Source: an uncultured Pseudomonadales bacterium (GTDB taxonomy: Bacteria; Patescibacteriota; Microgenomatia; UBA1400; PJMF01). From it: a DNA stretch of 64,000 nucleotides. The notes under the pieces were generated by a model. It did no database searches, was not told the origin of the DNA, and worked only from the letters and a program-made list of their open reading frames with translations. The stretch covers positions 13,369 through 77,368 of the forward strand of contig CAZYBC010000003.1 of assembly GCA_964645645.1 (NCBI GenBank), read 5' to 3'. A program made the position numbers and the translations under genes. Below are positions 9,625 through 48,320 of this stretch, one piece after another (position 1 is the stretch's first letter; every line of letters begins with the position of its first letter).

Positions 9625-9708
9625 GCCTCTGTGGCGGAATTGGCAGACGCGCGAGACTTAAAATCTCGTGATCGCAAGATCGTGTGGGTTCGACCCCCTC
9701 CGGAGGCA
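9625..9708 (+). tRNA. tRNA-Leu (anticodon TAA)
   Basis: Cloverleaf readable by eye: acceptor GCCTCTG/CGGAGGC, anticodon stem CGAGA/TCTCG with loop CTTAAAA, long variable arm, and T-loop GGTTCGACCCC. Confidence 0.8.
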
Positions 9709-9721
9709 CTTGATCATCATT

Positions 9722-10033
9722 ATGGTAAAAAAAGTAATTTTGATTTTTGGGATAATCATTGTTTTATTTATCACTATTTTAAAATTAAATTTATTGAGAG
9801 TAGAAATTTCACCTGGAGCTTATTTTTTTAAAATTCCACTCATAAAATTATTTCTTTTAATCAAAACTTCAGATAAAGCAAATCAAAAAAATGAATTTGG
9901 ATATCTAACTGATTATTTAAAAGCTGATGGTTTTGAACCATATGACCAATTGGGTTGTTTAATTAAATATAAAAAAGCAGCCAAAACTAAAAATTATAAC
10001 TGTACCGACATTAAAACTATTAGGTTATACTAG
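9722..10033 (+). CDS. small membrane-anchored hypothetical protein (103 aa)
   Basis: ATG just after tRNA-Leu with a strongly hydrophobic N-terminus (VILIFGIIIVLFITIL). The longer tracked ORFs 9631/9668 start inside the tRNA and are rejected. Confidence 0.25.
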   Translation: MVKKVILIFGIIIVLFITILKLNLLRVEISPGAYFFKIPLIKLFLLIKTSDKANQKNEFGYLTDYLKADGFEPYDQLGCLIKYKKAAKTKNYNCTDIKTIRLY

Positions 10034-10052
10034 ACTTATTGAAAATTAAAAT

Positions 10053-10126
10053 CGGGGAATAGCTCAGATGGCTAGAGCGCACGGTTTGGGACCGTGAGGC
10101 CGCAGGTTCGAGTCCTGTTTCCCCGA
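10053..10126 (+). tRNA. tRNA-Pro (anticodon TGG)
   Basis: Acceptor CGGGGAA/TTCCCCG, D-loop AGCTCAGATGGCTAGAGC, anticodon stem CACGG/CCGTG with loop TTTGGGA, and T-loop GGTTCGAGTCC. Confidence 0.8.
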
Positions 10127-10147
10127 CAACTTCAGCTAGCGTAACGT

Positions 10148-11245
10148 TTACAAAGATTTAGAGGCTATTAAAAAATCTTCATAGCCTCTTTTTCTCAAAA
10201 AATCAGTATATCCGTTGTAATCTTTGACGATGATATTTGTTTTAACCTGAGGTATATCCTGGAACCGTGGAATCAACTTAGTCGCCTCCTCCTTATTACT
10301 GGAAATAATTTCTAATGTAAGCAGTCCTTGCAAATTTTCCTTCATGAGATCAAGTAAATACTTATCTTGTGCTCTCCAACCAACAACAAGAATTCTATCC
10401 ACCTTTTTAATTTCATTGATGAGCACTTTAATATGTGCTGGCGGGCAGACACTTTTTGCTTTTGAAGCGATAGGAACCGCTATAGCAGGCAAATAATACA
10501 ACCAAGAATCACCATCAAACTGATTATTTTTACGCTCTCTGTAAGCTTCAAGGCTAAATTTTTCTTTAAAATAATCAAAGTCTCTGATAATATTGGGATA
10601 TACTTCTTGGCTATTATATTTCTGATACAGTTTTTGCCCACCAGATACAAAGAATTCATACACATCTTTTTTTTGAAAATCTATTTCTGGCTTGTATCTC
10701 CAATTATGAGCTCCATGGATTTTTATTACTTTAATATTGCCAGAAACGTAGCTATTTATATCTTTACTTGAATTTATCTCTTTGATGTTTTTTTCTAAAA
10801 GAGTATCGTAGTTAAAATTTACAAATAAGGCTTTTCCGACTCTATTGTTGATTTCATTGAGTAAATGGTTATGGTTATTAGTATGTCGATAAAATCTGTT
10901 GGAAACATTACTAAAAAGTTCTGCTAGATAAAAACGCAGTGCAATTATTTGTGGATAACTCCTTTCTGGGAATTGTATTTCTAATTCAGATAAGTACTTT
11001 TCAAAATCAAAAGGGTCGTCACTATCTGTGATATTAATGATAGCTGAAGCTAGTGGTTTAACATGTTCATAATTTCCTATAATTTCCAAAAATCTTGCAA
11101 CGTCAAAAATATTGTTGGTTAATGGCGGTCTCCAATTATTTAAGTCGTATTGATTAGCCCCACTGAAACGTCCTATCTTTTGGAAATCATAAGACGCTCC
11201 AGCCCCGAGGATAATTAATGGATATGCCATAGATTTTAACTCCAA
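10148..11245 (-). CDS. SIR2_2-like (ThsA-type SIR2/DHS-like NAD-binding) domain protein
   Basis: N-terminal IILGAGAS motif, FNYDTLLE (TNYD-like) motif and IKIHGAHNW (HG catalytic-His region), spaced as in SIR2_2/ThsA domains. C-terminal ~180 aa unassigned. Confidence 0.55.
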   Translation of the reverse strand: MELKSMAYPLIILGAGASYDFQKIGRFSGANQYDLNNWRPPLTNNIFDVARFLEIIGNYEHVKPLASAIINITDSDDPFDFEKYLSELEIQFPERSYPQIIALRFYLAELFSNVSNRFYRHTNNHNHLLNEINNRVGKALFVNFNYDTLLEKNIKEINSSKDINSYVSGNIKVIKIHGAHNWRYKPEIDFQKKDVYEFFVSGGQKLYQKYNSQEVYPNIIRDFDYFKEKFSLEAYRERKNNQFDGDSWLYYLPAIAVPIASKAKSVCPPAHIKVLINEIKKVDRILVVGWRAQDKYLLDLMKENLQGLLTLEIISSNKEEATKLIPRFQDIPQVKTNIIVKDYNGYTDFLRKRGYEDFLIASKSL

Positions 11246-11755
11246 TTACCATATAATACGCTAAGAATATATCATTTACACTAGTATCCACATATCTAAT
11301 GCTAACAATGACTTTTTTGAGTGCCTAGAAAAAATTTGAAGAGATATAACTACCTTTGAATTTTTAATGCGTTGTGCAATTGCCAAAAAAAACAAAAATA
11401 GGGATACATAATGAAAAAAGTTGATGATAATAAAGCATAAAAAAAGTTTAGATTGACCTAATCTAAGCTTGTTTTACATTTCTAGTAAAAACGCTACAAG
11501 TTATGGGATTATTAATCTGGAAACAAGTTTTCATTCCATAGATCAGACACGAATTTTTTTCCTAACTTAACTTCCATTAACTCTTAACTATTTCAAATTA
11601 ACGAGATCCACTAATTTGTCATCTTTTTGTCATAATTTATTGGTATTATTATATAAATACCACTAAACTATTTTGATCTATTTATAAACACTCAAATTGT
11701 GGTTATATTTGGTGTTTATTCGTTTCACAGATCAGGATAAAATAGACTAATATAT

Positions 11756-14700
11756 ATGAACCTCTTCAACAAAAAACTTTTAGCCCAACATCTAGTTAAA
11801 TATAATTTTCCTAACGGTCAACAATTAGAAGATATCCAAAAAATCCTATCCGGTTGGCAAAAAGCTCTAAAAGACAGCAATCTTGATCGTACTAAAGAAA
11901 CTAGTATTCAAGGTCAATTCTTAACTAAATTTTTTGAAACTATTCTTGGATACGACACGCAAACATCTGGCAAAGAACTTTGGCATTTAAACCAAGAACC
12001 TAAAACCGAAGTTGATGCACAAGAGGCTGATGGAGCATTAGGCTTTTTTACCAAAAATTCAAGTAAAGTTTTAGCAGTCATTGAACTTAAAGATGCAAAA
12101 ACTTCTCTAGACAAAAAACAATCTGGCAGAATCGGTAAACTCACGCCAGTTGAACAAGCTTTTCAATATCTTAATAAATTTGATGGCTGTAAGTGGGCAA
12201 TTGTTGCAAACTTTAGAGAGATTAGAATTTACAGCAAACTTCGAGGCCAAGGTTTCTATGAAAAATTTGATATTATTAGCCTGACAGAAGAACCTGAATT
12301 TAAACGTTTTTATTACATTTTTAATAAAAATAATCTTATTAATGAAGGTAAAATATCAGTTACTGAATCTTTAGCTGCTGATACTACTGTCCAAGAAGAA
12401 AATATCACCAAAAAATTCTATGAGCAGTACAAAGAAATTAGACTTAAAGTTCTTAATCATTTATTTGAATACAATCCACAGGTTGATCGCTTAGTGCTAG
12501 TAGAAAAAACTCAAAAATTATTAGATAGATTATTGTTTACTTTAGTCTGTGAAGACTCAACCACCCTTTTACCAACACACATTGTTAAAACCACCTATGA
12601 TAGAAGTTTTCAATCCTTTGCTCTATCTGGCAACAATCAGCGAGTCTGGCTAAACTTTAAAGGCTTGTTTAAAGCTATTGATGAAGGTGTTAAGGATATC
12701 GATCCGCCAATCAATAAATATAACGGTGGTTTATTCAAAAATGATGAAATTTTAGATAATTTGATTATTAAAGATGACATCTGGAAAGAAATTATCAAGC
12801 TTACTCAATATGATTTTGAAAGCGATCTAAACGTCAATGTTCTGGGTCATATCTTTGAACAAAGTATTAGTGACCTAGAAGAAATCAAAGCTCAAGTTGA
12901 GGGTGAAGCGGTTGATAAGAAAAAATCATTACGAAAAAAACAAGGTATTTTTTATACTCCAGAATACATTACCAAATTTATTGTTGAAAATACTGTGGGT
13001 AAATACCTAGAAAAAAATCCTGATAAACTCAAAACTATCAAAATTCTTGATCCTGCTTGCGGTAGTGGAGCATTTTTAAATCAAGCTCATTCATTCTTGC
13101 TCAATCAATACAAGGTTAGAGATGAAGAAAAGCAACTAGAATTACAAAAGCAAGGGAAAGCCACTAGTTTATTTGATCTAAGTTGGGTAGAAAATGATAA
13201 AACTATTTTACTTAATAATTTATATGGAGTTGACTTAAGCCCTGAGAGTGTCGAAATTACCAAGCTTGCTCTGTGGCTGAAAACTGCCAAGGCTACTGAA
13301 CCACTGCAAAATCTAGACAATAATATTAAGTGTGGTAACTCACTGATTGATGATCCAGAAATTGCTGGTGATAAAGCATTTAATTGGAATACTGAATTTA
13401 AAGACATTATGGATGAAGGCGGATTTGATGTGATTATTGGGAATCCACCGTATGTGTACGCTAGGGAAAAAATTTCTTTTAACGAAAAGGAATATTTCAA
13501 CTCTGAATATTTATCAGCTGAATATCAGCTCAACACTTTTGTTTTATTTATAGAAAAATCAATTAAACTCTTGAAAGATAAAGGATTGCTTGGTTTTATT
13601 ATTCCCAATAGTTTACTAAAAATTGGTTCAATTTCAAAATTAAGAAAATACATTTTAGACAATACATCTGTCAATATTATAGTAAGTTTGTCTGGGTATT
13701 CATTTGAGAGTGTTAATGTGGAAACCGTAATACTTGTGGTCCAAAAAAACTCAAAAAATTCATATGTAGATGTAAAGAAAATTGAATCAGATACTGATAT
13801 ATATTCACAAGAATCATTTTCTGTTAATAGCTCAAGATGGAAAACGAATCAAAACTATGAATTTGATATTTTCTCATCAGATTCCGACTTAAAGCTGATC
13901 AGTAAAATTCAAACAAGCTCTCAAACTCTTGAGAGCTTGTTTAACGTAAAGGCTGGACTTCAAGCATACGAAAAAGGCAAAGGAAATCCAGTTCAAAATG
14001 AAGAAGATGTTAGGAATAGACCATATGACTTCCAAACTAAGGTTGATGAAAATACCCATAAATATTTAGAAGGAAAAAATATATCAAGATATCTTATCCA
14101 AGGATTTAGTTACTGGCTTAAATACGGTGATAACTTAGCTGCACCAAGATCATTCGATATTTTTTGTAGACCAAGAATATTGATCAGGGAAATAACAAAT
14201 AACCAACCATACTGCTTTCATGCATCCTATGTTGAAGAAACTTTTTTAAATAATAGAAGCATCATCAATGTGTTGGATCCCCAAAATGATAGGCAGAAAT
14301 TGCTGAATTTATTGGCAATAATCAATAGCAAACTAGCATCATGGTATTTCGTTAAAACTAATCCAAAAGCCAATAGATCAATGTTTCCAAAGCTGATTCT
14401 TAGAGATCTAGCAAATTTTCCCATTACTTTACCCAAAAACAAGATAAATCTGGATAAAGTAGAAAAATTAATAATCAAAATTTCAAAATTAAATACAAAA
14501 CTGTTCACTGAAAAAGGTAGATTGAATGAAATTATTGTTTCAAAATTTAAGTTAAAAAATAAAACAAACTTAATCAATTTTTACCAACTCGGTTGGAACG
14601 GATTCATTGCAGAACTTGAAAAACAAAAAGTTAAACTTGATGTCAGTGAACAAGATAAACTTAATAAGTGGTTCAACAAAGTTGGAAAGTCTTTATTGGA

Positions 14701-14803
14701 TCTTGAACAAGAAATTAGTGATCTAGACAGACAAATTGATCAATTTGTCTATGAGCTTTATGACTTAACCAAAGAAGAAATAAAATTAATAGAAAAAGAA
14801 TAA
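11756..14803 (+). CDS. Type IIG/IIL restriction-modification enzyme (gamma-class N6-adenine MTase with target-recognition C-terminus; putative N-terminal nuclease)
   Basis: 1015-aa single polypeptide. SAM-binding motif I LDPACGSGAFL and catalytic motif IV VIIGNPPY. N-terminal region has an IELKDAK stretch compatible with PD-ExK. No BREX partners nearby. Confidence 0.8.
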   Translation: MNLFNKKLLAQHLVKYNFPNGQQLEDIQKILSGWQKALKDSNLDRTKETSIQGQFLTKFFETILGYDTQTSGKELWHLNQEPKTEVDAQEADGALGFFTKNSSKVLAVIELKDAKTSLDKKQSGRIGKLTPVEQAFQYLNKFDGCKWAIVANFREIRIYSKLRGQGFYEKFDIISLTEEPEFKRFYYIFNKNNLINEGKISVTESLAADTTVQEENITKKFYEQYKEIRLKVLNHLFEYNPQVDRLVLVEKTQKLLDRLLFTLVCEDSTTLLPTHIVKTTYDRSFQSFALSGNNQRVWLNFKGLFKAIDEGVKDIDPPINKYNGGLFKNDEILDNLIIKDDIWKEIIKLTQYDFESDLNVNVLGHIFEQSISDLEEIKAQVEGEAVDKKKSLRKKQGIFYTPEYITKFIVENTVGKYLEKNPDKLKTIKILDPACGSGAFLNQAHSFLLNQYKVRDEEKQLELQKQGKATSLFDLSWVENDKTILLNNLYGVDLSPESVEITKLALWLKTAKATEPLQNLDNNIKCGNSLIDDPEIAGDKAFNWNTEFKDIMDEGGFDVIIGNPPYVYAREKISFNEKEYFNSEYLSAEYQLNTFVLFIEKSIKLLKDKGLLGFIIPNSLLKIGSISKLRKYILDNTSVNIIVSLSGYSFESVNVETVILVVQKNSKNSYVDVKKIESDTDIYSQESFSVNSSRWKTNQNYEFDIFSSDSDLKLISKIQTSSQTLESLFNVKAGLQAYEKGKGNPVQNEEDVRNRPYDFQTKVDENTHKYLEGKNISRYLIQGFSYWLKYGDNLAAPRSFDIFCRPRILIREITNNQPYCFHASYVEETFLNNRSIINVLDPQNDRQKLLNLLAIINSKLASWYFVKTNPKANRSMFPKLILRDLANFPITLPKNKINLDKVEKLIIKISKLNTKLFTEKGRLNEIIVSKFKLKNKTNLINFYQLGWNGFIAELEKQKVKLDVSEQDKLNKWFNKVGKSLLDLEQEISDLDRQIDQFVYELYDLTKEEIKLIEKE

Positions 14804-14815
14804 TAATAACTTAAA

Positions 14816-15586
14816 ATGACACAAACAAAAATAGCAGAGCTACAAGAAGAATTAAAAAACATCAAAAGTTATTTTATTGCTGATGGAAGATATTCTTTAG
14901 ATGGATTAGTAAAGTGGTCAGCAAAAACAGCTGCTTTTTTTGAAACCGTTGGAGTTCCTCAAAATGTTATTGATCATTTTTTAATAATTTTTAACATAAA
15001 TTATCTTAAAGAAAAAGAAATATCACCTCTAGAAAGAGATCCAAGAGATGGAGCTTTCGTTTACTTTAAAAAATTTTCAGAAGATCGATTAATGCCTCTT
15101 TGGATAGCCATTGAATATGCAGAAATCAAAATAAAGTATATGCAGTTTGAGGAATCATTGGTTCCAAGATGGTTGCTATCAACACTTTCAAATAAAAAAG
15201 GGGTTGAACACATTTCTTCTGCACTACAGGCTTTGGATCAAGCATTTGAAAATAGATCAGCAAAAGACATTTTGAATCACTCCAATTCATTGTTGGAGAG
15301 CATACTTAACCTAGATAGTAGACTTACTACTAAAGATCTAGGTCCAAAACTACAAACTTTATCAGAAGATAGAGATGGAAAAATTCGTTATAAGTTTGGT
15401 GGTCTTAGTTGTGATTTTTTTAGAGGTATTAATGCCTCAAGACTGATAAGAAATGAAAGAGTAGTGCATTCAAATATAGGAATGAATCATAACATCCCAT
15501 TTATTGTTGGAGCATCATCAGCTTATCTAGTTGTTACCCTGCTTGAAGCAACGTTGTCTGCTGGAAAACTAGTTAAGTTAACATAA
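14816..15586 (+). CDS. hypothetical protein co-operonic with the RM enzyme (256 aa)
   Basis: Starts 12 nt after the RM stop on the same strand; no recognisable motif. Confidence 0.45.
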   Translation: MTQTKIAELQEELKNIKSYFIADGRYSLDGLVKWSAKTAAFFETVGVPQNVIDHFLIIFNINYLKEKEISPLERDPRDGAFVYFKKFSEDRLMPLWIAIEYAEIKIKYMQFEESLVPRWLLSTLSNKKGVEHISSALQALDQAFENRSAKDILNHSNSLLESILNLDSRLTTKDLGPKLQTLSEDRDGKIRYKFGGLSCDFFRGINASRLIRNERVVHSNIGMNHNIPFIVGASSAYLVVTLLEATLSAGKLVKLT

Positions 15587-15735
15587 CTCTCACCTTGCTT
15601 GCTTAACACTAGCTAGGTTATATTTTTGTGATTTTGGTCTTGAATCTGTATTAAAAACGAAGAATTCTATAGGTTTTTCTATCTGAAAGAATGTTATAAT
15701 TTCATTCCAAAGGTCCGACAAAAGTTTATAAAAAA

Positions 15736-15765
15736 ATCCCCAGATTTCATACTGGGGATTTTTTA
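15736..15765. terminator. bidirectional intrinsic terminator
   Basis: Hairpin atccccag-N8-ctggggat, flanked by an A-run upstream and a T-run downstream, between convergent genes. Confidence 0.5.
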
Positions 15766-47519: not shown

Positions 47520-47712
47520 TTAAAAATTAATTAAGATTGTTTGGAAGTAAGGTGAAAATCCTTCGCTGTGCCGCAACGGTTAAAGTCCGATACAAGCAAT
47601 CACTTTGAATTATTTTCAAAGTTAAACTGACGAGCATCGGGTTTTTGGTTGCCCAATAAATATTGGCAAACAAAAAAATTTCCCCGTATTGCTCCTCTTT
47701 TGAGGAGTTTTT
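47520..47712 (+). promoter_or_regulatory. cobalamin (AdoCbl-variant-like) riboswitch with terminator expression platform
   Basis: GGAAGTAAGGTGAAAATCCTTCGCTGTGCCGCAACGGTTAAAGTCCGATAC matches the cobalamin aptamer core (GGTGnAAnTCC ... CnGnCCCGCnACnGTnA ... AGYCnGAnAC B12-box-like), without a long peripheral extension. Followed by the hairpin gctcctcttttgaggag plus TTTTTT at 47691-47712, immediately before the ATG. Confidence 0.55.
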
Positions 47713-47714
47713 TA

Positions 47715-48320
47715 ATGGCTATTAACGCCGAATTACTTAGACCAACACGAGTTTTTCATCCAGAAAAAAGTACTCATTTCTGGCAAGATTTAACAGCCGT
47801 AGCTGTTGGTTTTTTTAGTAACTTAAAACTCAATTCCAAAAATCTTTTTCACCCCAATACTAATAAACAAGCTGGTGAAACTTGGCAAAGTTTGTCGTAT
47901 CTAAACAATCGCGATCAGTATCAGCAGCTAACTCAGTTGCTTGAATATATGGCTTTAGAATTGCGAACATATTTTGATGAATATGTCGCTTTAAAAGTTA
48001 TCAAAACTTATCCTAATTTTGGCGAAAAAGGCATTGATAATATTGCTCCATTTAATTTAGTCAGTATTGCTCAGCAAACTAAACAAGATTTAGCCGAAAA
48101 AGGTTTTGATACAACTAGAGCTGATTTAGAAATTATCGCTATGCAAAAACTGCTTAATTTTCTTAGTGATGAACAAGTTCCGATTGGCAGTTGTCTCGTT
48201 TACATTAGTCCACGTGGGCCTAAATATATGTATTTAGGTTATGAACTAAGCAATAACAATTATCTTAATTTGTATCTTAAAAACCGGGCCGGGGCAAGCT
48301 CGATTAATTCAATTGCTTAA
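47715..48320 (+). CDS. hypothetical protein (201 aa), first gene under the riboswitch
   Basis: Start reassigned to MAINAELL, right after the terminator. The tracked start 47649 lies inside the expression platform. Soluble, no motif. Confidence 0.45.
   Translation: MAINAELLRPTRVFHPEKSTHFWQDLTAVAVGFFSNLKLNSKNLFHPNTNKQAGETWQSLSYLNNRDQYQQLTQLLEYMALELRTYFDEYVALKVIKTYPNFGEKGIDNIAPFNLVSIAQQTKQDLAEKGFDTTRADLEIIAMQKLLNFLSDEQVPIGSCLVYISPRGPKYMYLGYELSNNNYLNLYLKNRAGASSINSIA

What the first reader, a model, noticed from the sequence alone, without database searches (positions are those of the whole stretch)
11756..15586. Type IIG/IIL RM enzyme with a tightly coupled unknown 256-aa partner gene
The 1015-aa MTase/nuclease fusion (LDPACGSGAFL, NPPY) is followed after 12 nt by an ORF with no recognisable domain. 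Type IIG enzymes are normally solitary, so a co-transcribed partner could be an accessory specificity factor, an anti-restriction control factor or an abortive-infection module. The pair together with the upstream SIR2 gene forms a three-gene islet bounded by a terminator at 15736.
Basis: partly seen in the sequence, partly recalled or inferred. Interest (0 to 1): 0.6.

Follow-up and report, generated by a model that had tools for sequence, protein, structure and literature searches.

The report
Restriction enzyme with HEPN-like passenger gene
An intact single-chain restriction-modification enzyme is followed 12 bases later by a small gene from an unannotated family that looks like a suicide-type RNase (HEPN) and often sits inside restriction operons, so this is a known kind of two-layer phage defence rather than a new enzyme subunit.

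Summary
ORF 11756-14803 is a complete MmeI-like Type IIG/IIL enzyme, with an invariant D92/E110/K112 nuclease motif, an N6-adenine methyltransferase domain and a TaqI_C recognition domain. ORF 14816-15586 (256 aa) starts 12 nt later. A strong hairpin at 15731-15764 closes the pair.

The partner is a real gene. It has at least 79 relatives of 250-280 aa at the 50% cluster level. None matches Pfam, NCBIfam or PHROGs.

The only invariant polar residues in the family are R212, N213 and H218 (RNx3-4H). In a confident AlphaFold model (pLDDT 89) they sit at the end of the third helix of a C-terminal helical bundle. That is the HEPN RNase signature, but Foldseek and profile searches did not link the family to any known HEPN family. 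One member gave a weak AbiJ hit.

The partner is absent next to all ten other homologous Type IIG genes I examined. Its relatives lie between hsdM and hsdS in three Type I operons and stand alone in the other five loci (one contig too short to judge).

The best reading is a mobile, abortive-infection-type HEPN-like module riding in restriction operons, as with PrrC or AbiJ. It is not a dedicated Type IIG subunit. I rate it a new member of a known kind, of moderate interest.

The parts
9625..10127 (+). tRNA-Leu(taa) 9625-9709 and tRNA-Pro(tgg) 10053-10127, the left border of the islet (context only)
   Evidence: ARAGORN and Rfam tRNA. G+C falls to 0.28-0.32 over 11-16 kb against 0.33-0.36 over 6-11 kb to the left; it stays low (0.30-0.35) to the right.
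10148..11245 (-). 365-aa SIR2-like protein, divergent from the Type IIG gene; a link to the pair is not shown
   Evidence: Pfam SIR2_2 E = 0.011, below cut-off. No PADLOC or PDB sequence match. No homologue next to the three closest Type IIG orthologues.
11756..14803 (+). 1015-aa Type IIG/IIL restriction-modification enzyme (nuclease + N6-adenine methyltransferase + recognition domain in one chain)
   Evidence: Pfam Eco57I, N6_Mtase, MmeI_Mtase and TaqI_C. PADLOC REase_MTase_IIG 6.6e-123. 7655 homologues at E<=1e-30.
12029..12091 (+). PD-(D/E)xK nuclease motif D92 ... E110-L-K112
   Evidence: D92, E110 and K112 are invariant in 120 aligned homologues.
13046..13453 (+). Methyltransferase motif I LDPACGSGAFL (13046-13078) to motif IV NPPY (13442-13453)
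   Evidence: Read from the sequence. These residues are invariant in alignment A5. The domain matches the solved methyltransferases CamA, BrxX and TaqI.
14060..14425 (+). TaqI_C-like target recognition domain (residues 769-890)
   Evidence: Pfam TaqI_C 5.3e-16.
14816..15586 (+). 256-aa partner: N-terminal helical/beta-hairpin domain (about 1-125) plus C-terminal HEPN-like helical bundle (about 126-256)
   Evidence: Family of 79 representatives, alignment A1, AlphaFold pLDDT 89.
15449..15469 (+). R212-N213-E-R-V-V-H218: predicted catalytic RNx4H motif (HEPN-type Rx4-6H)
   Evidence: R 80/80, N 79/80 and H 80/80 in the family; spacing is RNx3H or RNx4H; no other polar residue is as well conserved, the nearest being R209 (74/81). 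The motif sits at the end of helix 199-215 and the start of the loop to helix 229-249.
15731..15764 (.). Bidirectional intrinsic-terminator hairpin between the convergent partner gene and the 464-aa ORF
   Evidence: 13-bp stem, -18.2 kcal/mol, z = -5.2; A run before and T run after.

Best explanation
The locus is a two-gene defence cassette.

Gene 1 is an intact MmeI-like Type IIG/IIL enzyme. It methylates its own recognition sites and cuts unmodified incoming DNA.

Gene 2 belongs to an unannotated family of about 250 aa, found so far only in uncultured low-G+C bacteria. It has an N-terminal domain of unknown fold and a C-terminal four-helix bundle carrying an invariant R-N-x3-4-H motif. I read this as a HEPN-type, metal-independent RNase with an AbiJ-like layout (N-terminal sensor domain plus C-terminal HEPN).

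The family is a mobile abortive-infection-type passenger, not a subunit of the Type IIG enzyme. It inserts repeatedly into restriction operons, between hsdM and hsdS of Type I systems and after the single-chain enzyme here. It also exists alone.

Inferred mechanism, not shown: the protein is co-transcribed with the restriction enzyme and dimerises, as HEPN RNases do, but stays latent. When a phage escapes or inhibits restriction, a cue sensed by its N-terminal domain releases the RNase. Cleavage of tRNA, rRNA or mRNA then stops translation and aborts the infection.

Shown here: the gene structure, the family, the invariant motif, the predicted helix order and the genomic contexts. Inferred: HEPN homology, RNase activity, the trigger and the outcome.
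For: 1. It is a real, conserved family: 79 representatives at E<=1e-3, all 250-290 aa when complete.
2. R212 (80/80), N213 (79/80) and H218 (80/80) are the only invariant polar residues. Spacing varies between RNx3H and RNx4H. Apart from R209 (74/81), the other conserved positions are hydrophobic or structural (G, P). This is the HEPN signature as defined in PMC3710099: Rx4-6H with N, D or H after the R.
3. The AlphaFold model (pLDDT 89, pTM 0.77) gives helices 131-145 and 149-164, then short inserted helices 175-193, then helix 199-215 ending in R212/N213, then a loop holding H218, then helix 229-249. [quoted passage not shown]
4. One member (P0142) matches PADLOC AbiJ at E = 4.1e-4. The match is co-linear (residues 89-209 against profile 106-228 of 281) and ends in its RN motif at 207.
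5. Four of nine sampled loci are restriction operons:
- the window;
- L008, where the homologue starts 3 nt after hsdM and hsdS lies downstream;
- L016, where it starts 1 nt after hsdM and overlaps hsdS by 8 nt, followed by a reverse transcriptase and hsdR;
- L019, with hsdM, then the homologue overlapping hsdS by 11 nt, then hsdR.
6. PMC3710099 reports at least 16 HEPN clades linked to restriction systems, including AbiJ 'solos'.
7. The restriction-linked members are not a single clade. P0123 is 45-50% identical to members found without an RM gene beside them (P0130, P0139) or on a contig too short to judge (P0124), and the window protein is closest to stand-alone P0122. Linkage was therefore gained or lost repeatedly, as expected of a mobile passenger.
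Against: 1. No significant similarity to any known HEPN family. Pfam, NCBIfam and PHROGs gave nothing for the window protein, and Pfam and NCBIfam gave nothing credible for any of 38 members. A profile search of PDB sequences gave nothing.
3. The AbiJ hit is a single member, at an E-value similar to an obviously spurious JetC coiled-coil hit.
4. The second acidic residue seen in many HEPN families is only semi-conserved here: D141 is mostly E or D but Q in some members.
5. Four of nine contexts have no restriction gene nearby and no obvious antitoxin (a fifth contig is too short to judge), so toxicity and its control are unexplained.
6. The pairing with a Type IIG enzyme was seen only once.
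Confidence: 0.55

Rival explanations
1. PrrC-like guard. The partner binds the HsdM-type methyltransferase core, which Type I HsdM and the Type IIG enzyme share, and is held inactive by it. Phage anti-restriction proteins that disable the enzyme release the RNase.
For: In three of the four restriction contexts (window, L008, L016) the gene follows the gene encoding the N6_Mtase domain within 12 nt; in three (L008, L016, L019) it lies between hsdM and hsdS, overlapping hsdS in L016 and L019. The PrrC-EcoprrI precedent is described in PMC3710099 and PMC12707154.
Against: Four of nine family members sit with no restriction gene nearby, for example between grpE and dnaK or among housekeeping genes; a fifth contig is too short to judge. 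A latent state that depends on an RM partner therefore cannot be general. There is no ABC-ATPase domain as in PrrC. PMC3710099 notes that HEPN fusions are to nuclease and helicase subunits, not to methylases. No interaction data exist.
Confidence: 0.2
2. Dedicated accessory subunit of this Type IIG enzyme, such as a specificity factor, a controller of expression or an anti-restriction control factor.
For: The 12-nt gap, the shared strand and the absence of an intervening terminator suggest co-expression.
Against: The partner is absent next to orthologues of 79, 66 and 59% identity and next to seven more distant homologues. The enzyme already has its own TaqI_C recognition domain. Partner homologues occur with unrelated Type I systems and alone. 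No DNA-binding domain was detected.
Confidence: 0.05
3. The R-N-H motif is not an RNase site. The protein is a non-catalytic or non-defence helical protein, for example a nucleotide- or ligand-binding HEPN-like domain or a scaffold. Its presence in restriction operons would then reflect insertion into permissive spots of mobile islands.
For: No fold or profile match to HEPN. Some members sit in housekeeping operons. HEPN-like domains that only bind substrate exist (PMC3710099).
Against: Substrate-binding HEPN domains typically lose the Rx4-6H motif, whereas here it is invariant in 80/80 members. Four of nine loci inside restriction operons is far above what a random gene would show; that comparison is my inference.
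Confidence: 0.15

Closest known systems
MmeI-family Type IIG/IIL restriction-modification enzymes (for ORF 11756-14803)
   Same: A single chain with an N-terminal PD-ExK nuclease (D92, E110, K112), a gamma-class N6-adenine methyltransferase (DPACGSG, NPPY) and a TaqI_C recognition domain. Homologues are mostly solitary genes.
   Different: Matches to the Pfam MmeI_N and MmeI_hel domains are below threshold. The recognition sequence and cut site are unknown. Here the gene carries a co-directional passenger.
PrrC anticodon nuclease embedded in the Type IC EcoprrI operon
   Same: A putative HEPN-type RNase gene embedded in, or appended to, a restriction-modification operon. This suggests RNA-level defence backing up DNA restriction.
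   Different: No ABC-ATPase domain, 256 aa rather than about 400, and no detectable sequence similarity. Partner homologues also occur with no restriction gene nearby. Regulation by the restriction enzyme is untested.
AbiJ family (variable N-terminal domain + C-terminal HEPN; some solos lie in R-M operons; PMC3710099)
   Same: Two-domain layout of similar size (247-280 aa against a 281-position profile), RN...H motif near the C-terminus, and occasional restriction-operon context. One member hits PADLOC AbiJ at E = 4.1e-4, co-linearly.
   Different: 37 of 38 members, including the window protein, do not hit AbiJ, and none hits Pfam Abi_C or the AbiJ_NTD models. The N-terminal domain matches none of the described domains.
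Other HEPN clades linked to restriction systems (DUF4145, Abi2/AbiD/AbiF, ApeA, Ymh, AbiU2 and others; at least 16 clades in PMC3710099)
   Same: The same genomic habit, especially insertion inside Type I operons. The same motif logic.
   Different: No profile match to any of them. So far the family is seen only in metagenome-derived, low-G+C contigs whose Type IIG relatives are named Woesebacteria, Shapirobacteria and Dojkabacteria. It is absent from the plasmid and phage collections.

Membership tests
Type IIG/IIL RM enzyme (MmeI-like) | N-terminal PD-(D/E)xK endonuclease motif | tested here: met
   D92, E110 and K112 are invariant in 120 homologues. The PADLOC IIG model aligns residues 38-420.
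Type IIG/IIL RM enzyme (MmeI-like) | Gamma-class N6-adenine methyltransferase motifs I and IV in the same chain | tested here: met
   LDPACGSGAFL and NPPY are present. Pfam Eco57I 4.7e-44, N6_Mtase 5.4e-27, MmeI_Mtase 4e-16.
Type IIG/IIL RM enzyme (MmeI-like) | C-terminal target recognition domain in the same chain | tested here: met
   Pfam TaqI_C 5.3e-16, residues 769-890.
Type IIG/IIL RM enzyme (MmeI-like) | Cleavage at a fixed distance from the site, and hemimethylation | not testable with these tools
   Needs enzyme assays or methylome data.
BREX PglX / DISARM DrmMI (considered for the large gene) | Full-length match above the family cut-off, with companion BREX or DISARM genes nearby | tested here: not met
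   NCBIfam BREX_1_MTaseX scores 122 bits against a cut-off of 500. The neighbours are tRNAs, a SIR2-like gene, an unknown 464-aa ORF and RecQ.
HEPN superfamily (partner) | Conserved Rx4-6H motif with a polar residue (N, D or H) after R | tested here: met
   R212 80/80, N213 79/80 and H218 80/80, with spacing x4-x5. Definition taken from PMC3710099.
HEPN superfamily (partner) | [quoted passage not shown] | tested here: inconclusive
HEPN superfamily (partner) | Significant profile similarity to an established HEPN family | tested here: not met
   No Pfam or NCBIfam HEPN hit for 38 members, and no PHROGs HEPN hit for the window protein. The PDB profile search was empty. Only one weak AbiJ hit appeared.
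HEPN superfamily (partner) | Metal-independent RNase activity dependent on R and H | not testable with these tools
   Needs biochemistry.
AbiJ family | Match to AbiJ/Abi_C HEPN models and to one of the AbiJ N-terminal domains 1-5 | tested here: not met
   One of 38 members hits PADLOC AbiJ at 4.1e-4. No Pfam Abi_C or AbiJ_NTD hit.
PrrC/RloC-type restriction guard | Gene embedded in a restriction-modification operon | tested here: met
   Four of nine loci.
PrrC/RloC-type restriction guard | N-terminal ABC-ATPase regulatory domain | tested here: not met
   No ATPase domain in Pfam or NCBIfam for any member.
PrrC/RloC-type restriction guard | Held latent by the restriction enzyme and activated by an anti-restriction factor | not testable with these tools
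   Needs genetics and biochemistry.
SIR2 (upstream gene 10148-11245) | Domain match above threshold | tested here: inconclusive
   Pfam SIR2_2 gives E = 0.011 and 16.3 bits against a cut-off of 24.5. No PDB sequence match. Only the GAGAS, NYD and HG motifs are seen.

The most novel reading that the evidence does not exclude
The family is a guard of HsdM-type methyltransferase cores, restricted to uncultured low-G+C bacteria that are probably candidate-phyla-radiation lineages. On this reading a small HEPN-like RNase docks on the methyltransferase module shared by Type I and single-chain Type IIG enzymes. It fires when a phage inhibitor disables that module. This would extend the PrrC paradigm to Type IIG enzymes and to bacteria with very small genomes.
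Probability: 0.2. Interest if true: 0.55.

Novelty: new member of a known kind. Interest (0 to 1): 0.35.

Why it matters
HEPN-type RNases attached to restriction systems are thought to be a second line of defence that kills or arrests the cell when restriction fails. Only PrrC has been worked out experimentally.

This family is not covered by Pfam, NCBIfam, PHROGs or PADLOC. Defence-system annotation of uncultured small-genome bacteria therefore misses it. A simple profile built from alignment A1 would let it be annotated.

Its repeated position between hsdM and hsdS, and once after a Type IIG enzyme, gives a compact two-gene system in which the guard hypothesis could be tested.

It does not change what is known about how Type IIG enzymes work.

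Tried and rejected
- **Word-indexed homologue search.** The search with the partner found only itself. The same search with the family alignment returned three proteins. The exhaustive representative search was what revealed the family.
- **Single-sequence AlphaFold.** The model was poor, pLDDT 45, and was replaced by the alignment-based model.
- **Searching for related loci.** With the narrower A3 alignment, the genome and metagenome scans recovered only the P0122 locus, and the viral scan found nothing.
- **tblastn.** The window partner against plasmids and phages, and P0142 against plasmids, found nothing.
- **The AbiJ hit.** Locating the member that produced it took three PADLOC calls (59-61). 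Pfam then showed no Abi_C match for that member or its relatives.
- **Conserved SIR2-like gene beside the enzyme.** Rejected: tblastn found no homologue in the three closest orthologue loci.
- **Direct repeats flanking the pair as insertion scars.** An imperfect repeat of about 70 nt lies at 11482-11550 and 15648-15720. It scores 32 against 22 +/- 3 in shuffles, and 11 of 1000 shuffles reach it. Other window segments score 29. I treat it as marginal and not as evidence.
- **BREX or DISARM membership of the enzyme.** Rejected: scores are far below the cut-offs and there are no companion genes.
- **Local hhalign comparison.** I planned to compare the family with the two other HEPN-like ORFs of L008, but the script machine was lost.
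Full report
**Observation**

ORF 11756-14803 (+, 1015 aa) and ORF 14816-15586 (+, 256 aa) are separated by 12 nt.

The large protein is a complete single-chain Type IIG/IIL restriction-modification enzyme.
- Pfam gives Eco57I (4.7e-44), N6_Mtase (5.4e-27), MmeI_Mtase (4e-16) and TaqI_C (5.3e-16), with sub-threshold MmeI_N and MmeI_hel.
- The best PADLOC model is REase_MTase_IIG at 6.6e-123.
- Its matches to BREX PglX, DISARM DrmMI and MADS methylases are partial and far below the curated cut-offs.
- In an alignment of 120 homologues, D92, E110 and K112 are invariant. That is a PD-ExK nuclease motif, so the nuclease half looks intact.
- Motif I (LDPACGSGAFL) and motif IV (NPPY) are present and invariant.
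- Solved relatives cover only the methyltransferase part: CamA, BrxX and TaqI.

A hairpin at 15731-15764 has a 13-bp stem, an A run before it and a T run after it. Its energy is -18.2 kcal/mol, z = -5.2. It lies between the partner gene and a convergent 464-aa ORF and is a plausible bidirectional terminator. The consensus scan missed it. No terminator-like site on the + strand lies between the two genes.

**The partner is a real gene with a family**

Pfam, PADLOC, NCBIfam and PHROGs give nothing for the 256-aa protein. A word-indexed search found only the protein itself.

An exhaustive HMMER scan of 1.84 billion cluster representatives found 79 proteins at E<=1e-3, 53 at E<=1e-10, and a best hit of 39% identity. 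Nearly all are 250-290 aa and align end to end. The one member that carries a source name in the cluster look-ups (of 16 queried) is called 'hypothetical protein [bacterium]'. None of 38 aligned members has a credible Pfam or NCBIfam hit.

**What the family looks like**

Among 82 sequences, R212 (80/80), N213 (79/80) and H218 (80/80) are the only invariant polar residues, and R209 is nearly so. The spacing is RNx4H in most members and RNx3H in some. Apart from R209, every other well-conserved column is hydrophobic or structural (G, P).

With the family alignment, AlphaFold gives a confident model (pLDDT 89, pTM 0.77).
- The N-terminal half has helices and two small beta-hairpins.
- The C-terminal half has helices 131-145 and 149-164, then short inserted helices at 175-193.
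- Helix 199-215 ends in R212 and N213. A loop carries H218. A long last helix runs 229-249.

The reference analysis of the HEPN superfamily (PMC3710099) defines the fold as follows:
- a four-helix up-down bundle with frequent inserts between helices 2 and 3;
- an Rx4-6H motif with N, D or H after the R;

The partner fits each of these points at the level of sequence and predicted secondary structure.

Direct tests of membership were negative or unavailable.
- Foldseek of the model against PDB and BFVD gave no hit at E<=0.001.
- A family-profile search of PDB sequences was empty.
- One member, P0142, matches the PADLOC AbiJ model at E = 4.1e-4. The match is co-linear (residues 89-209 against profile 106-228 of 281) and stops in its RN motif at 207.
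- A spurious coiled-coil hit to JetC has a similar E-value, so I treat the AbiJ match as a lead only.

I therefore call the domain HEPN-like, with a probability of about 0.7. I do not file the family under any named HEPN family.

**Is the partner tied to this enzyme family?**

It is not.
- The three closest orthologues (79, 66 and 59% identity) have no partner homologue, by tblastn or by a family HMM run on all ORFs.
- Their downstream genes are a convergent 60-aa ORF plus a zeta toxin, an overlapping 512-aa PDDEXK/RNase_H_2-like gene, and a convergent 68-aa ORF.
- Seven further homologues on viral contigs also lack it.
- Six of the ten loci have a convergent gene directly downstream.

**Where the partner family lives**

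| Locus | Family member | Context |
|---|---|---|
| window | 256-aa partner | 12 nt after the Type IIG gene |
| L008 | P0123 | starts 3 nt after hsdM; hsdS downstream |
| L016 | P0131 | starts 1 nt after hsdM, overlaps hsdS by 8 nt, then a reverse transcriptase and hsdR |
| L019 | P0134 | hsdM, three small genes, then the homologue overlapping hsdS by 11 nt, then hsdR |
| L007/L012 | P0122 (closest relative) | after an unknown 183-aa gene |
| L015 | P0130 | beside an ORF-poor ~2.9-kb stretch (possibly rRNA; not checked) and what looks like an integrase N-terminal fragment |
| L017 | P0136 | among housekeeping genes |
| L018 | P0139 | between grpE and dnaK |
| L011 | P0124 | contig too short to judge |

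Four of the nine are restriction operons. I infer that this is far above the rate for a random gene.

The restriction-linked members are not a single clade, so linkage has been gained or lost repeatedly. This is how a mobile defence passenger behaves. PMC3710099 describes the same pattern for at least 16 HEPN clades, including AbiJ 'solos'.

**Mechanism**

I commit to the following. The pair is a two-layer defence cassette. The Type IIG enzyme restricts unmodified DNA. The partner is a latent, probably dimeric, HEPN-like RNase with an N-terminal sensor domain. Once activated during infection it cleaves cellular or phage RNA and aborts the infection.

The trigger is unknown. Because about half of the family stands alone, I favour self-contained sensing through the N-terminal domain, as proposed for AbiJ-type proteins. 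The alternative is PrrC-like latency imposed by the restriction enzyme. It remains a serious rival at 0.2, because three of the four restriction-linked members directly follow the gene that encodes the HsdM-type methyltransferase domain and three lie between hsdM and hsdS.

A dedicated specificity or control subunit is unlikely (0.05). A non-catalytic role remains possible (0.15), given the failed fold and profile tests.

**The 'three-gene islet'**

The upstream 365-aa gene is divergent, with a 510-nt spacer. It has only a sub-threshold SIR2_2 hit (E = 0.011) plus SIR2-like GAGAS, NYD and HG motifs. It has no PADLOC or PDB sequence match and no homologue in the three closest orthologue loci.

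The segment lies directly after tRNA-Leu and tRNA-Pro and has slightly lower G+C than the 6-11 kb stretch to its left. That is compatible with a small defence island. Imperfect repeats flanking the Type IIG and partner pair are only marginally above chance. A functional three-gene unit is not supported.

**Verdict**

The large gene is an ordinary member of a large Type IIG family. The partner belongs to a new, unannotated family that most likely falls in the known class of restriction-linked HEPN abortive-infection modules.

Novelty is 'new member of a known kind' and interest is moderate (0.35). The host is probably a candidate-phyla-radiation bacterium. That is inferred only from the names attached to Type IIG homologues (Woesebacteria, Shapirobacteria, Dojkabacteria).

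Noticed in passing
L008:3157-3747 and L008:5686-6600: The Type I operon that holds partner homologue P0123 carries two more unannotated ORFs with HEPN-like motifs: a 196-aa ORF with 'NNRLRNKFVHY' (RNx3H) and a 304-aa ORF with 'GIRHRLVHGEY' (RHx3H). The partner-family HMM does not detect either, so one restriction operon may carry three different HEPN-like passengers.
   Followed up: partly
L016:5820-7328: A 502-aa reverse transcriptase (Pfam RVT_1) lies between hsdS and hsdR, just downstream of partner homologue P0131. Its sequence has no Rx4-6H motif, so it is not an obvious AbiA-type RT-HEPN fusion.
   Followed up: partly
L003:8104-9642: The 66%-identical Type IIG orthologue has a different, overlapping (11 nt) downstream gene: 512 aa with weak PDDEXK_1 and RNase_H_2 hits. 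The 3' flank of this enzyme family seems to accept varied cargo.
   Followed up: no
L018:6001-6810: Partner homologue P0139 is inserted between grpE and dnaK in an hrcA-grpE-X-dnaK-dnaJ heat-shock cluster. This is an odd place for a presumed toxin gene.
   Followed up: no
window:59495-62881 (-): A 1128-aa ORF whose only Pfam hit is a C-terminal PAPS_reduct domain (residues 864-1035, 2.9e-7). The first ~860 residues are unannotated.
   Followed up: no
window:47527-47603 (+): An AdoCbl-II (cobalamin) riboswitch above Rfam's gathering score (47.4 bits), upstream of ORF 47649-48320.
   Followed up: no
window:11482-11550 and 15648-15720: An imperfect direct repeat of about 70 nt flanks the Type IIG and partner pair. 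Its local alignment score is 32 against 22 +/- 3 for shuffles, and 11 of 1000 shuffles reach it. It is marginal and may be chance in AT-rich spacers.
   Followed up: yes
window:15782-17176 (-): A convergent 464-aa ORF with an N-terminal hydrophobic segment and no credible hit in Pfam, PADLOC, NCBIfam or PHROGs. It shares the bidirectional terminator with the partner gene.
   Followed up: partly
window:32970-36098 (+): In the lowest-G+C stretch of the window (0.27-0.31) lies a 1042-aa sensor histidine kinase with a periplasmic SBP_bac_3 domain and several PAS domains. It is not a second restriction enzyme.
   Followed up: yes
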